This document shows positions 52,733-59,357 of a DNA stretch of 64,000 nucleotides, in pieces; within the stretch, counting starts at the first letter, position 1; each line of letters starts with the position of its first letter. Source of the stretch: Escherichia coli (lineage in GTDB: Bacteria; Pseudomonadota; Gammaproteobacteria; Enterobacterales; Enterobacteriaceae); NCBI RefSeq assembly GCF_011045215.1, contig NZ_CP049201.1; one strand, 5' to 3'. The position numbers were made by a program, and so were the translations under genes. Under the pieces are notes generated by a model. That model worked only from the letters and a program-made list of their open reading frames with translations. It ran no database searches and was not told the origin of the DNA.

Positions 52733-53356
52733 ATGAACAAGAACTTACTAACAAGGGTAATTATCATTTCGGATGATCTATATTACCTTCAGGGATTAAG
52801 TGCAAAACTAGGTCACCATTATCGTTTTTTTATTGAGTGTTTTTTTTGTTCTCAAAATGCATGCAATAATGACCTAAGTACACTTAGATTTGACAACCGC
52901 TTTACAAAAAACGTACTTCTTGTCGCAGTGGATGACGTAAGTATACTTGCAAAACTGCCAGATTTGGCCAGGTTTTTAATGATTGTTTCACTAAGAAAGA
53001 TGAAAAACAGAAATATCTTCTTTTCACTTTCAGAGCAAATATTCATTAGCCGATATATAAAATTGAATAAACTCATTACTTTGATTAAAAGTACTGATAA
53101 AGACCAGCAAGTCAGGCAGGTAACTCTGACAAGGTATGAGTGGGATATCTATTACTTATTTTTTAAGATAGATAACAAAAGAATATTGCACACCCTGCTA
53201 AAAAAGGATGTCAAGTATATTAGTCACTATAAAATATCAGTTTTTAATAAGTTTGAAATTGCTTGTGATAGTGATGGCTTTTACATTTTCAAGGCACTTA
53301 TACAGTTAAGGAGATTTACCCGTTTTAAAAACGTCAGATTGTATCAATTGCATTAA
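52733..53356 (+). CDS. Putative fimbrial-operon regulator with a degenerate LuxR-type HTH
   Basis: 207 aa, AT-rich; C-terminal ...LTRYEWDIYYLFFKIDNKRILHTLLKKDVKYISHYKISVFNKFEI follows the LuxR/FixJ HTH pattern; sits just upstream of the fimbrial major subunit gene. Confidence 0.4.
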   Translation: MNKNLLTRVIIISDDLYYLQGLSAKLGHHYRFFIECFFCSQNACNNDLSTLRFDNRFTKNVLLVAVDDVSILAKLPDLARFLMIVSLRKMKNRNIFFSLSEQIFISRYIKLNKLITLIKSTDKDQQVRQVTLTRYEWDIYYLFFKIDNKRILHTLLKKDVKYISHYKISVFNKFEIACDSDGFYIFKALIQLRRFTRFKNVRLYQLH

Positions 53357-53398
53357 TTAACTCGTTCTATATTAACTCTAAATTTCAAGGATATTAAT

Positions 53399-53959
53399 AT
53401 GTTTTCTACTTTCAAAAAAGCAGCTCTGCTGGCAGCTATTGCATTACCTTTTTCAACTATGGCTGCGCCTACAGTCACTTTTCAGGGTGAAGTAACCGAT
53501 CAGACCTGTTCCGTAAATATCAACGGTCAAACCAATTCAGTAGTATTGATGCCGACCGTAGCCATGGCTGACTTCGGTGCAACTTTAGCTGATGGTCAGA
53601 GCGCAGGCCTGACGCCGTTTACGGTTTCTGTGTCTAACTGCCAGGCTCCAACTGGTACAGATCAGGCAATCAACACCACCTTCCTGGGCTACGACGTTGA
53701 CGCTAGCACGGGTGTTATGGGAAACCGTGATACCAGCAGCGATGCGGCGAAAGGCTTTGGCATTCAGTTAATGGATTCCAGCACTTCTGGTAACCCAATA
53801 ACTCTGGCTGGCGCGACTAACGTACCGGGTCTGACCCTGAAAGTTGGCGATACCGAAGCCAGCTACGACTTCGGTGCGCGTTACTTCGTTATCGATAGCG
53901 CTGCTGCCACTGCCGGTAAAATTACCGCTGTCGCAGAATACACCCTGAGCTACCTCTAA
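53399..53959 (+). CDS. Fimbrial major subunit (type 1/FimA-like pilin)
   Basis: 186 aa; signal peptide; Cys pair; C-terminal ...AEYTLSYL donor-strand-type motif. Confidence 0.8.
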   Translation: MFSTFKKAALLAAIALPFSTMAAPTVTFQGEVTDQTCSVNINGQTNSVVLMPTVAMADFGATLADGQSAGLTPFTVSVSNCQAPTGTDQAINTTFLGYDVDASTGVMGNRDTSSDAAKGFGIQLMDSSTSGNPITLAGATNVPGLTLKVGDTEASYDFGARYFVIDSAAATAGKITAVAEYTLSYL

Positions 53960-54023
53960 TTAATCTACTGGCTGGCAGTAAATGTCAGCCAGTATTTCTT
54001 TGCACAATTAATAGTGATTTTTC

Positions 54024-57321: not shown

Positions 57322-57336
57322 TACAGAGAAAACCCG

Positions 57337-58671
57337 ATGTCTAAATCGACTTTATTACACATTCTGATTAGCTCCATCATATTGGTGGCACTAATACAAT
57401 CATCCGCTTGGGCTAACTGTACAAACACACAGATAGGTCAAACTGAAGATGGTCGGACAGCGCTTATTGAGTTCGGAAAAATTAATATGACCGACACCTA
57501 TTTTGCGCCAGCAGGTTCACTCCTCGCGACAACGGTCGTACCTCCCACTAACTACACATCAGGTGGCGCGACAGGAAGCTCAGTATTGTGGGAATGTGAT
57601 GCAACAGATTTGCCAAACATCTATTTTCTGGTCGCTACCAATGGCGACGACCGCGTGGGGGGCTTTTACGATGCAGGCGGGCCTGATGGTCTGAGTGATG
57701 TCTATGCCACCTGGTTCGCTTTTGTCGGTCTCAAGCAGACCATGGCGGGCGTGACGCTTGGTCGTTACTGGAAGAAAGTGCCCATCACCAGTTATGCCAC
57801 TCAGGGAACTAAAATCCAGATTCGCTTACAGGATATCCCTCCTCTTCATGCTGAGCTTTATCGCATCAGTACGCTACCTGATACATCAGCAACAACAAGT
57901 TGGTGCGGTAATAATAATACAGATGGTAGTGGAGTCGGATTCGCAAAACCTTCCGGTACAATCTATAACTGTGTTCAGCCCAATGCCTATATTCAGCTTT
58001 CCGGTACCAGCGGCATTTTATTTGGTCATGATGAGCCCGGCGAAGATAGTTCTGTTCATTGGGATTTCTGGGGTGCTGATAATGGTTTTGGTTACGGAAT
58101 GCGTTCGGCCAATCGACTCTACAACAATGCCACCTGCGTTGCCCGCAGCGCCACGCCGTTAGTATTGCTGCCGACAATTGCAGAAGCACAACTGAATGCG
58201 GGCATGGAAAGTACCGGTAATTTTAATGTCCGCGTCGAGTGTAGTAACTCGGTTCAATCAGGGATTAGCGATACTCAGACAGCATTAGGAATCCAGGTGT
58301 CTGAAGGTGCATATACAGCGGCGCAAAAACTGGGGATTATCAATAGCAACGGCGGCGTCAGCGCCCTGGTCTCTGATAATTATGACGCAGCAGAGATGGC
58401 AAAGGGCGTTGGGATCTACATTTCTAACAGTGCTCACCCCGATACGGCGATGACGCTGGTTGGTCAACCGGGCATCGCGAAGTTAACCCCCGGAGGAAAT
58501 GCAGCGGGGTGGTATCCTGTATTTGAAGGGGCAACATTAGAAGGTGCGACTCACCCCGGATACTCCAGCTATAGTTACTCTTTTATCGCCCGGTTGAAGA
58601 AACTGCCAAATCAGACAGTCAGTGCGGGAAAAGTGCGGGCAACGGCTTATATATTGGTGAAAATGCAATGA
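57337..58671 (+). CDS. Fimbrial tip adhesin / minor subunit (two-domain, 444 aa)
   Basis: Signal peptide; size fits a lectin-plus-pilin two-domain adhesin; position after the usher. Confidence 0.55.
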   Translation: MSKSTLLHILISSIILVALIQSSAWANCTNTQIGQTEDGRTALIEFGKINMTDTYFAPAGSLLATTVVPPTNYTSGGATGSSVLWECDATDLPNIYFLVATNGDDRVGGFYDAGGPDGLSDVYATWFAFVGLKQTMAGVTLGRYWKKVPITSYATQGTKIQIRLQDIPPLHAELYRISTLPDTSATTSWCGNNNTDGSGVGFAKPSGTIYNCVQPNAYIQLSGTSGILFGHDEPGEDSSVHWDFWGADNGFGYGMRSANRLYNNATCVARSATPLVLLPTIAEAQLNAGMESTGNFNVRVECSNSVQSGISDTQTALGIQVSEGAYTAAQKLGIINSNGGVSALVSDNYDAAEMAKGVGIYISNSAHPDTAMTLVGQPGIAKLTPGGNAAGWYPVFEGATLEGATHPGYSSYSYSFIARLKKLPNQTVSAGKVRATAYILVKMQ

Positions 58672-59357
58672 AATCCGTTTTGCTCCTCTTAACCGTCTTG
58701 TTCGTACAGTCAGTGGAAGCCGGCATCATGCCGGCTTCTTCACGGATTATTTATCGCGATGGCGATCGGGAAAAGACACTGATGCTGGTCAATACCAATG
58801 ACTATCCGGTACTGGTGCAAAGTTGGGTAGATAATGGTGAAGGTTCCCCTGAATCTGCTTCTCCCCCCTTTGTGGTGCTGCCACCGGTTTTCCGCCTGGC
58901 TGCGAGACGAACCCAGGGGTTGCGGATTATCTATAATCATGACCCACTTCCCCAGGATCGCGAATCTGCATTCTGGTTAAATCTTTATGAAATGCCGCCA
59001 GAAACTCCCCATCAAGATCCCACACATTTAACGCTGGCAATGAATACGCAACTTAAAATCTTTTACAGGCCAAAATCTGTAACTATGACGCCCCAAGAAG
59101 CTATGCGTAAAATAAGTTGGCATCTGGGTAACGACGGCAGCAGTAGCTATATTGAGCTTAATAACCCAACACCACTGAATATCTCTTTCACCTCCATCAG
59201 CATTGGGGCTACAAAGGTGCAGCAAGAAAGCGATATGATGATAAAACCCTTCAGTCAACGACGGTACTGGTTAGCAAGTAATAACGTTAGTGGTGTGGTT
59301 GCGGCGACATATCTCGATGATAATGGTGCACAGATAAAACAACAATTAGCGCAATAA
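58668..59357 (+). CDS. Second periplasmic fimbrial chaperone (PapD-like)
   Basis: 229 aa; signal peptide; ...SRIIYRDGDREKTLMLVNTNDYPVLVQSW... chaperone pattern. Confidence 0.75.
   Translation: MKSVLLLLTVLFVQSVEAGIMPASSRIIYRDGDREKTLMLVNTNDYPVLVQSWVDNGEGSPESASPPFVVLPPVFRLAARRTQGLRIIYNHDPLPQDRESAFWLNLYEMPPETPHQDPTHLTLAMNTQLKIFYRPKSVTMTPQEAMRKISWHLGNDGSSSYIELNNPTPLNISFTSISIGATKVQQESDMMIKPFSQRRYWLASNNVSGVVAATYLDDNGAQIKQQLAQ

What the first reader, a model, noticed from the sequence alone, without database searches (positions are those of the whole stretch)
52733..59357. Chaperone-usher fimbrial operon with two chaperones, a large adhesin and its own regulator
Gene order regulator, major pilin, chaperone, usher, 444-aa adhesin, second chaperone. 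The adhesin is larger than typical type 1 tip adhesins and the second chaperone may be dedicated to it. The upstream regulator has only a degenerate LuxR-type HTH and is extremely AT-rich, suggesting H-NS silencing under laboratory conditions.
Basis: partly seen in the sequence, partly recalled or inferred. Interest (0 to 1): 0.35.

Follow-up and report, generated by a model that had tools for sequence, protein, structure and literature searches.

The report
Known O157-type "loc6" fimbrial operon
This is an intact copy of a pilus-building operon already catalogued in E. coli O157:H7 (called loc6 or "type 3-like" fimbriae); its function has never been shown, so the gene list is correct but the locus itself is not a discovery.

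Summary
All six ORFs are present at the stated coordinates, in the stated order. Five are unambiguous chaperone-usher parts: pilin, chaperone, usher, 444-aa subunit, second chaperone.

Added here:
- **Adhesin:** a confident structure model shows a two-domain tip adhesin. Its enlarged binding domain resembles Abp1D and MrkD in fold only.
- **Adhesin family:** it is widespread and tightly conserved across gamma- and beta-proteobacteria, and all five operons examined have the same five-gene order.
- **Second chaperone:** it forms its own ancient orthologous lineage, and its start overlaps the adhesin stop codon.
- **Upstream 207-aa ORF (31% GC):** it is a real, fast-evolving gene with a divergent LuxR-type helix-turn-helix (profile comparison, 95.6% probability). 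No tool result or paper found here shows a regulatory role.

H-NS silencing is plausible but untested. Verdict: already known; low to moderate interest.

The parts
52482..52511 (+). Candidate sigma-70 promoter (TTGTTA-N18-TATATT) for the regulator gene and possibly the whole operon. It sits in the only well-conserved block of the distal upstream region.
   Evidence: Promoter scan (the number of sites in the region is no higher than in shuffles). The block is conserved in the divergent island L002, where the surrounding sequence is not. Inferred, not shown.
52733..53356 (+). [not shown]
   Evidence: ORF. Purifying selection and a conserved frame in a 55%-identical syntenic orthologue. Only about 12 relatives among 1.84 billion representative proteins. 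Three relatives give weak GerE hits. hhalign against known LuxR-type regulators: 95.6% probability, E 1e-8, residues about 91-181. AF2 failed (pLDDT 40). 31.4% GC.
53399..53959 (+). [not shown]
   Evidence: Pfam Fimbrial, E 8e-14. The N- and C-terminal motifs are conserved in Pseudomonas, Proteus and Acinetobacter operons. 38% identity to MrkA over 98 aa.
53966..53994 (+). Stem-loop with 12 paired bases followed by a T-run, directly after the pilin gene. It is a likely intra-operon attenuator or mRNA stabiliser that sets the ratio of pilin to assembly proteins.
   Evidence: Terminator scan. A strong hairpin occupies the same position in all six related operons examined, although the sequences differ. 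The function is inferred.
54024..54746 (+). First periplasmic chaperone (PapD-like). The start is 54024 (240 aa) or 54045 (233 aa, the RefSeq call).
   Evidence: PapD_N, E 2e-35, and PapD_C, E 1e-13. The motifs that by my reading correspond to PapD Arg8 (TRIIF) and Lys112 (RVKIFYRP) are present (sequence). RefSeq start.
54799..57321 (+). [not shown]
   Evidence: PapC_N, Usher and PapC_C. FimD, E 3e-115, over the full length. The best NCBIfam model is NF011784, which by accession order sits between the StbD and StbB models; score 701 bits, below the 996 cut-off. 32.5% identity to MrkC.
57337..58671 (+). Two-domain tip adhesin (444 aa): signal peptide about 1-26, enlarged receptor-binding domain about 27-262, pilin domain 263-444.
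58668..59357 (+). Second periplasmic chaperone (229 aa). Its start overlaps the adhesin stop codon (ATGA).
   Evidence: PapD_N, E 1e-37, and PapD_C, E 6e-11. It is orthologous to the second chaperones of the Pseudomonas, Proteus and Acinetobacter operons (39-43% identity) rather than to any first chaperone (25-33%). The overlap is visible in the sequence.

Best explanation
The region is an intact copy of the E. coli O157:H7-type 'loc6 / type 3-like' chaperone-usher fimbrial operon of O-island 47.

Proposed mechanism:
- Subunits are exported by Sec and captured in the periplasm by PapD-like chaperones.
- They are polymerised by donor-strand exchange at the 840-aa usher.
- The 444-aa protein enters first, because it has a binding domain where other subunits carry a donor strand. 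It therefore sits at the tip. A simple rod of the 186-aa pilin follows, and no adaptor subunits are encoded.
- The first chaperone most likely serves the pilin, and the second, translationally coupled chaperone most likely serves the adhesin.
- A hairpin after the pilin gene tunes the ratio of pilin to machinery.
- The AT-rich upstream gene encodes a divergent LuxR-type DNA-binding protein. It most likely acts as an operon-specific activator, in the manner of EcpR/MatA, that counteracts nucleoid-protein silencing of the AT-rich promoter region.

Shown here: the identity of the locus, the domain content, the adhesin fold, the conservation of both chaperone lineages, and the HTH homology. Inferred: tip position, chaperone-client pairing, attenuation, regulator function and H-NS silencing.
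For: Locus identity:
- About 99% identity (98.9-99.0%) over 7.1 kb to the O157:H7 and O55:H7 genomes listed; present in 401 of 5,426 complete genomes.
- Same neighbours as published for OI-47 / S-loop 71.
- Named loc6 / type 3-like.

Machinery:
- Pfam domains; FimD homology over the full length.

Adhesin:

Conserved module:
- The same five-gene order in a divergent Escherichia-like island, P. citronellolis, P. mirabilis and A. ihumii.

Two chaperone lineages:
- Second chaperones cluster together across genera.
- The pilin and adhesin keep different, conserved C-terminal motifs (...EYTLSYL against ...Y[IV]LVKxQ).
- The adhesin stop overlaps the second chaperone's start.

Hairpin:
-.

Regulator:
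- Coding constraint.
- hhalign 95.6% probability against LuxR-type regulators.
- One relative sits directly upstream of another chaperone-usher operon.
- A 42-nt gap to the pilin gene and a conserved promoter-like block upstream.
- AT-richness.
Against: - No expression or function is known. A loc6 deletion did not change binding to spinach roots, and the operon's function is described as unknown.
- The regulator has no Pfam hit, its AF2 model failed, and its N-terminal half matches nothing.
- A different regulator in the same island, GrvA, is the only one in OI-47 that has been characterised, and it could equally control the operon.
- The chaperone-client pairing was not tested; no complex modelling was possible.
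- H-NS binding was not tested.
- The promoter scan finds no more sites than shuffled sequence does.
Confidence: 0.85

Rival explanations
1. The second chaperone, or the whole fimbrial machinery, works together with the adjacent two-partner secretion system OtpA/OtpB. The model is P. aeruginosa CupB, where (from my own recollection, not checked here) a TpsA-like protein depends on the Cup usher and a dedicated chaperone.
For: otpA (47528-51340, minus strand) is transcribed divergently from the operon. The whole arrangement of TPS, regulator, fimbrial operon, SDR and GrvA-like pair is syntenic in an island whose genes are only 50-89% identical at the protein level. The authors who characterised OtpAB proposed that OtpA could be accessory to loc6, as quoted.
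Against: The five-gene module, including the second chaperone, occurs without any TPS gene nearby in P. citronellolis, P. mirabilis and A. ihumii. The second chaperone is therefore intrinsic to the fimbrial module. OtpB is a complete ShlB-type transporter in its own right.
Confidence: 0.07
2. The 207-aa ORF is not a regulator of this operon. It could be a decaying or orphan LuxR-like gene, or a regulator of other targets such as motility or c-di-GMP-linked genes, while the fimbrial genes are controlled by GrvA, RcsB or global factors.
For: There is no Pfam hit. It evolves about five times faster at non-synonymous sites than the structural genes. One relative (P0129) is not next to any fimbrial operon but follows a stand-alone EAL gene. 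GrvA lies 1.6 kb downstream and is a known global regulator.
Against: The frame and length are conserved at 55% identity, with pN well below pS. The HTH region is the best-conserved part. It keeps the same position immediately upstream of the pilin gene in three divergent loci and in one unrelated chaperone-usher operon.
Confidence: 0.25
3. The 444-aa protein is not a receptor-binding adhesin. Its large, unusually conserved N-terminal domain might serve a structural or self-association role, for example pilus-pilus or matrix contacts in biofilms.
For: Across genera the N-terminal domain is more conserved (mean 67% identity) than the pilin domain (60%), which in my experience is unusual for host-receptor lectin domains. 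The family spans soil, plant, insect and gut bacteria. No sequence relative has a solved structure.
Confidence: 0.15

Closest known systems
[not shown]
   Same: About 99% nucleotide identity over the whole operon. The adhesin differs by 2 aa. The flanking genes are the same (OtpAB, SDR, GrvA, EAL, dgcT).
   Different: The host strain is not O157: the best match is a 4.8-Mb stool isolate from The Gambia. Some other E. coli carry a second, recombinant adhesin allele with 35 aa differences.
Salmonella enterica Stb fimbriae (stbABCDE)
   Same: The only NCBIfam model the 444-aa protein hits is StbD (E 9.5e-33, full-length alignment, model length 441). The usher's best model is NF011784, which by accession order falls between the StbD and StbB models. 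From my own knowledge, stbABCDE has the same gene order of pilin, chaperone, usher, large subunit and second chaperone.
   Different: All scores are far below the equivalog cut-offs (113 against 363 bits; 701 against 996), so these are paralogous types, not orthologues. Wurpel et al. list six fimbrial types conserved between Escherichia and Salmonella, and type 3-like is not among them.
Pseudomonas aeruginosa CupA fimbriae (cupA1-A5)
   Same: The published gene set has two fimbrial subunits (A1, A4), two chaperones (A2, A5) and one usher (A3). A Pseudomonas citronellolis operon with exactly this order encodes a 57%-identical adhesin homologue.
   Different: A sequence relationship to P. aeruginosa CupA4 itself was not shown. 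No P. aeruginosa protein appeared among the 120 best hits of the P. citronellolis homologue.
Klebsiella type 3 fimbriae (mrkABCDF)
   Different: The fifth gene is a chaperone, not a minor subunit like MrkF. The adhesin is 444 aa against 331 aa and shows no significant BLASTP similarity to MrkD. The usher is equally distant from ElfC and FimD.
EcpR/MatA, the LuxR-type first gene of the E. coli common pilus operon
   Same: A small (about 200 aa), AT-rich LuxR-type protein encoded immediately upstream of the pilin gene on the same strand. The HTH aligns in the same register.
   Different: There is no pairwise sequence similarity beyond the HTH (1% probability on its own). MatA's role as a regulator is taken from its annotation and my own knowledge; no function is known for the 207-aa protein.

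Membership tests
Classical chaperone-usher fimbrial operon | Outer-membrane usher with N-terminal, pore and C-terminal domains | tested here: met
   PapC_N, Usher (E 4.5e-152) and PapC_C. Full-length match to FimD structures, E 3e-115.
Classical chaperone-usher fimbrial operon | PapD-like periplasmic chaperone with two Ig-like domains and the subunit-anchoring Arg/Lys pair | tested here: met
   PapD_N and PapD_C in both chaperones. TRIIF/SRIIY and KIFYRP motifs are present in both; equating them with PapD Arg8 and Lys112 is my reading.
Classical chaperone-usher fimbrial operon | Pilin subunit(s) with the fimbrial fold and an N-terminal donor strand | tested here: met
   Pfam Fimbrial. The mature N-terminus APTVTFQGEV is conserved across genera.
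Classical chaperone-usher fimbrial operon | Assembled pili on the cell surface | not testable with these tools
   No published visualisation of loc6 pili was found.
E. coli O157:H7 loc6 / type 3-like fimbriae | Sequence identity to the O157:H7 locus and the same position in OI-47 (Wurpel typing uses usher phylogeny plus locus position) | tested here: met
   About 99% identity to the O157:H7 and O55:H7 genomes listed. The usher differs by 4 aa from ATCC 35150. The island lies between dgcT and ycdU with OtpAB and GrvA.
Two-domain tip adhesin | N-terminal receptor-binding domain joined to a C-terminal pilin domain that lacks its own donor strand | tested here: met
   [not shown]
Two-domain tip adhesin | Demonstrated ligand binding | not testable with these tools
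   No ligand is known. The loc6 deletion had no effect on spinach-root binding.
Klebsiella type 3 (Mrk) fimbriae | Gene order mrkABCDF with an MrkD-family adhesin and the MrkF minor subunit | tested here: not met
   The fifth gene is a chaperone. There is no significant BLASTP similarity to MrkD. The Mrk gene order is shown.
Salmonella Stb fimbriae (equivalog) | Scores above the NCBIfam equivalog cut-offs for StbD and the neighbouring usher model | tested here: not met
   113.5 against 363 bits for StbD; 701 against 996 bits for NF011784. These are homologous but not the same type.
P. aeruginosa CupA fimbriae | Homology of the large subunit to CupA4 | tested here: inconclusive
   The gene order matches.
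LuxR/GerE-type HTH transcription factors | C-terminal four-helix GerE-type DNA-binding domain | tested here: met
   hhalign of the family alignment against six known LuxR-type regulators: 95.6% probability, E 1.1e-8, 89 columns. Same register against RcsB alone. Below Pfam's GerE threshold: no hit for the window protein, and E 0.003-0.03 in three relatives.
NarL/FixJ response regulators | N-terminal receiver domain with a phospho-acceptor aspartate | tested here: inconclusive
   No profile match exists upstream of residue about 91. AF2 failed. A conserved SDD..YY..G motif is seen near the N-terminus and an A.DD motif at 65-68, but these are not diagnostic.
H-NS-silenced horizontally acquired locus | AT-rich regulatory DNA relative to the genome | tested here: met
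   33.5% GC (upstream intergenic region) and 31.4% GC (regulator gene), against 49.3% for the structural genes and 47.2% for the window.
H-NS-silenced horizontally acquired locus | H-NS occupancy and derepression in an hns mutant | not testable with these tools
   [not shown]

The most novel reading that the evidence does not exclude
The 444-aa protein could represent a structurally unsolved class of chaperone-usher tip adhesin. Its enlarged binding domain is under unusually strong cross-genus constraint: 53-88% identity from E. coli to Acinetobacter, Pseudomonas and Dyella in the aligned set, which is higher than for its own pilin domain. That pattern would imply one conserved, non-host-specific ligand, such as a plant, fungal, matrix or abiotic-surface determinant. 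In this reading the adhesin needs its own co-inherited chaperone lineage. In E. coli the module would additionally be switched by a previously undescribed family of degenerate LuxR-type proteins, whose relatives are paired with stand-alone EAL (c-di-GMP) genes.
Probability: 0.25. Interest if true: 0.45.

Novelty: already known. Interest (0 to 1): 0.2.

Why it matters
As a locus it does not change anything. It is one of the roughly 14-16 fimbrial clusters already listed for E. coli O157:H7, and one of the 38 chaperone-usher types catalogued for E. coli.

It is, however, one of the few on that list with no known expression condition, ligand or phenotype. It sits in an island conserved in nearly all O157:H7 strains, beside a characterised virulence regulator (GrvA).

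The analysis gives anyone who wants to study it some concrete starting points:
- a confident structural model of the adhesin;
- evidence that the adhesin family and its second chaperone form an ancient, widely shared module;
- a candidate operon-specific LuxR-type switch, with a candidate promoter.

Tried and rejected
rejected. The locus lies in an O island, and O islands are defined as absent from K-12. K-12 SfmH shows no similarity to the adhesin.
- **YqeH as a homologue of the 207-aa protein:** BLASTP found nothing, and hhalign gave only 3% probability on its own. The downstream pair, by contrast, are clear YqeI/YqeJ paralogues.
- **Structure of the 207-aa protein:** AF2 with a 4-sequence alignment failed (pLDDT 40). 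Profile searches of the PDB gave only E 0.3-1 hits to RcsB.
- **CupA4 homology:** a third large protein search, seeded with the P. citronellolis homologue, returned no P. aeruginosa protein in the top 120. The CupA comparison therefore rests on gene order only.
- **PDB sequence relatives of the adhesin family:** none at E <= 1.
- **Invertible promoter switch:** only imperfect AT-rich inverted repeats were found, and no recombinase gene is annotated in the flanks inspected. Rejected.
- **FmrA (OI-1) as a possible homologue of the regulator:** the Sakai OI-1 annotation shows no comparable small gene upstream of its pilin, and the paper is not held. Dropped.
- **Nuccio and Baumler clade paper:** not held, so the usher clade (probably gamma-4) is not confirmed from the literature.
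- **Locus-tag literature searches:** these gave almost nothing beyond one preprint.
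Full report
**Observation**

Pfam assigns the 186-aa protein to the Fimbrial family and both 229-240-aa proteins to PapD_N + PapD_C. The 840-aa protein has PapC_N + Usher + PapC_C, and the 444-aa protein is Fimbrial only over residues 263-444. The 207-aa ORF has no Pfam or NCBIfam hit, even at E <= 10.

Base composition changes sharply at the pilin start codon. The 1.4-kb upstream intergenic region is 33.5% GC and the 207-aa ORF 31.4%, against 49.3% for the five structural genes. The description is therefore accurate, and this is a real operon rather than a chance set of ORFs.

**Identity of the locus**

The 7.1-kb region matches 401 of 5,426 complete E. coli genomes. It is essentially identical to a Gambian stool isolate, with 5 differences in 20.6 kb. 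It is about 99% identical (98.9-99.0%) to the O157:H7 and O55:H7 genomes listed.

The annotated neighbours place it in a known island:
- On one side lie a two-partner secretion pair and a fatty-acid/polyketide-like cluster running out to ycdU.
- On the other side lie an SDR gene, a winged-helix regulator with a YqeJ-like partner, an EAL protein, dgcT and pgaA.

Published functional information is minimal:
- The operon's function is described as unknown.
- It was not among the fimbriae expressed by Elpers and Hensel, nor among those in the glycan-array study.

**The adhesin**

The 444-aa protein has more than 300 full-length homologues of 415-483 aa. They are 51-69% identical outside Escherichia, in Serratia, Klebsiella, Pluralibacter, Proteus, Erwinia, Pantoea, Pseudomonas, Acinetobacter, Aeromonas and Dyella, with Castellaniella and Paraburkholderia also in the family. 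No member has a sequence relative in the PDB.

- The whole chain matches the two-domain adhesins CupB6, LpfD, CsuE and PapG.

The binding domain is about 235 residues, whereas the matched domains are 163-187 residues. That explains the extra length. The protein shows no significant BLASTP similarity to MrkD or SfmH.

Unexpectedly, the binding domain is more conserved across genera (mean 67% identity) than the pilin domain (60%).

Within E. coli the window carries the O157 allele, with 2 aa differences. A second allele (strain LH50-c) differs at 35 positions, 31 of them in the binding domain. There pS is 0.38, against 0.06-0.12 in the flanking genes, and pN/pS is 0.18. This is the signature of allelic replacement by recombination, not of positive selection.

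**Architecture and the second chaperone**

The order pilin, chaperone, usher, roughly 430-445-aa adhesin, chaperone is identical in all five operons examined: the window, a divergent Escherichia-like island (L002), P. citronellolis, P. mirabilis and A. ihumii.

The second chaperones are closer to one another across genera (39-43% to the E. coli protein) than to any first chaperone (25-33%), and the reverse also holds. The duplication is therefore old, and both copies have been kept. Both carry the motifs that, by my reading, correspond to PapD's subunit-anchoring Arg and Lys.

The pilin and the adhesin have different, family-wide conserved C-terminal strands (...EYTLSYL against ...Y[IV]LVKxQ). 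The adhesin stop overlaps the second chaperone's start in four of the five operons.

Together these points make "one chaperone per client" the most economical reading, but the pairing was not tested. The alternative, that the second chaperone serves the neighbouring OtpA as in the Pseudomonas CupB system, is unlikely, because the module occurs elsewhere without any TPS gene.

A strong stem-loop directly after the pilin gene is present in all six operons checked, even though the sequences differ. That suggests a conserved attenuator or mRNA stabiliser.

**Nearest named systems**

- **Salmonella Stb.** The usher's best NCBIfam model is the one lying between the StbD and StbB models in accession order (701 bits, cut-off 996). 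The adhesin hits only the StbD model (113 bits, cut-off 363). Stb is therefore the nearest named homologue, but it is not the same type.
- **Klebsiella type 3 (Mrk).** The usher is about equally distant from MrkC (32.5%), ElfC (32.8%) and FimD. The pilin is 38% identical to MrkA over half its length. "Type 3-like" is thus a loose label: the Mrk operon ends with a minor subunit rather than a chaperone.
- **P. aeruginosa CupA.** cupA1-5 has the same published parts list, but I could not show sequence homology to CupA4.

**The upstream gene**

The 207-aa ORF is a genuine gene. In the divergent syntenic island it is exactly 207 codons long, 55% identical, with pN 0.26 against a saturated pS of 0.79. 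The structural genes in the same comparison are 72-89% identical.

A profile search of 1.84 billion representative proteins found only 12 relatives. Their contexts are informative:
- One (P0128) lies immediately upstream of an unrelated chaperone-usher operon.
- Another (P0129) lies beside a YqeI/YqeJ-like pair.
- Both are directly preceded by a stand-alone EAL gene.

Evidence on the HTH built up in steps:
- Three relatives give sub-threshold GerE hits in the expected place.
- A family profile finds the RcsB DNA-binding domain in the PDB at E 0.3-1.
- hhalign places the same segment on the HTH of RcsB, FimZ, YqeH and MatA individually, though weakly.
- Against an alignment of six known LuxR-type regulators, hhalign gives 95.6% probability and E 1e-8 over 89 columns.

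The N-terminal half matches nothing, and AF2 failed on it. Whether it is a decayed receiver domain is open.

The gene's position is 42 nt upstream of the pilin gene on the same strand. A conserved promoter-like block lies about 220 nt further upstream. This arrangement parallels matA (ecpR) ahead of ecpA in K-12. That parallel is the basis for proposing an operon-specific activator. No tool result or paper found here supports a regulatory role directly.

The only characterised regulator of the island is GrvA, which is the winged-helix gene at 60973-61785.

**H-NS**

The AT-rich upstream region fits the known preference of H-NS for AT-rich, horizontally acquired DNA (established knowledge). The tools cannot test occupancy or derepression, and I found no published data for this locus.

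**Verdict**

The operon, however, is an already catalogued and functionally uncharacterised E. coli fimbrial type rather than something new.

The modest added value lies in four points: the adhesin model, the breadth and constraint of the adhesin family, the two conserved chaperone lineages, and the recognition of a small family of divergent LuxR-type proteins. Interest is low to moderate.

Noticed in passing
window 60973-61785 (+) and 61790-62281 (+): The winged-helix gene downstream of the operon is GrvA (z1531), a characterised ToxR-family virulence regulator of O157:H7. It and its 163-aa partner are paralogues of K-12 YqeI (33% identity) and YqeJ (21%). Both are about 33% GC and evolve as fast as the 207-aa gene.
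   Followed up: partly
window 47528-51340 (-) and upstream genes: The OtpA/OtpB two-partner secretion system is transcribed divergently from the fimbrial operon. The whole arrangement of TPS, LuxR-like gene, fimbrial operon, SDR and GrvA-like pair is syntenic in a much more divergent island from gut metagenomes (L002-L004).
   Followed up: partly
window 51604-51619 / 51639-51654: A perfect 16-bp inverted repeat (GGATGTCTGAAATGAT ... ATCATTTCAGACATCC) with a 19-nt spacer lies in the otpA-proximal part of the intergenic region. Its core (TCTGAAATGA / TCATTTCA) is conserved in the divergent island. It could be a regulator binding site or an RNA hairpin.
   Followed up: no
window 57337-58671 compared with L017 7434-8768: E. 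coli carries at least two adhesin alleles. The LH50-c type differs at 35 aa, 31 of them in the binding domain, where synonymous divergence is 0.38 against 0.06-0.12 in the neighbouring genes. This indicates a recombinant replacement of the binding-domain coding segment.
   Followed up: partly
L007 3-1384 and L008 7215-8648: Distant relatives of the 207-aa protein are each directly preceded by a stand-alone EAL-domain gene of about 255 aa. In L007 the two genes overlap by 4 nt and sit upstream of a chaperone-usher operon. This suggests a recurring 'EAL + degenerate LuxR' two-gene module, reminiscent of mrkJ next to the Klebsiella mrk operon.
   Followed up: partly
window 59503-60294 (-): The SDR oxidoreductase gene is intact in the window (263-aa ORF). 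RefSeq annotates it as a pseudogene with an internal stop in the closest genome (strain 100181), and one of the 5 differences between the two sequences falls in this gene.
   Followed up: yes
L013 9037-15299: In Pseudomonas citronellolis the homologous five-gene operon is followed by a canonical REC-GerE response regulator, a hybrid histidine kinase and a REC-EAL protein. This is another link between this fimbrial type, LuxR-type regulators and c-di-GMP turnover.
   Followed up: no
E. coli genome hits H39, H48, H49, H50: In some E. coli the operon is interrupted by an IS3-family element or truncated. In O145:H28 strain 12E115 only the last 13% of the query matches.
   Followed up: no
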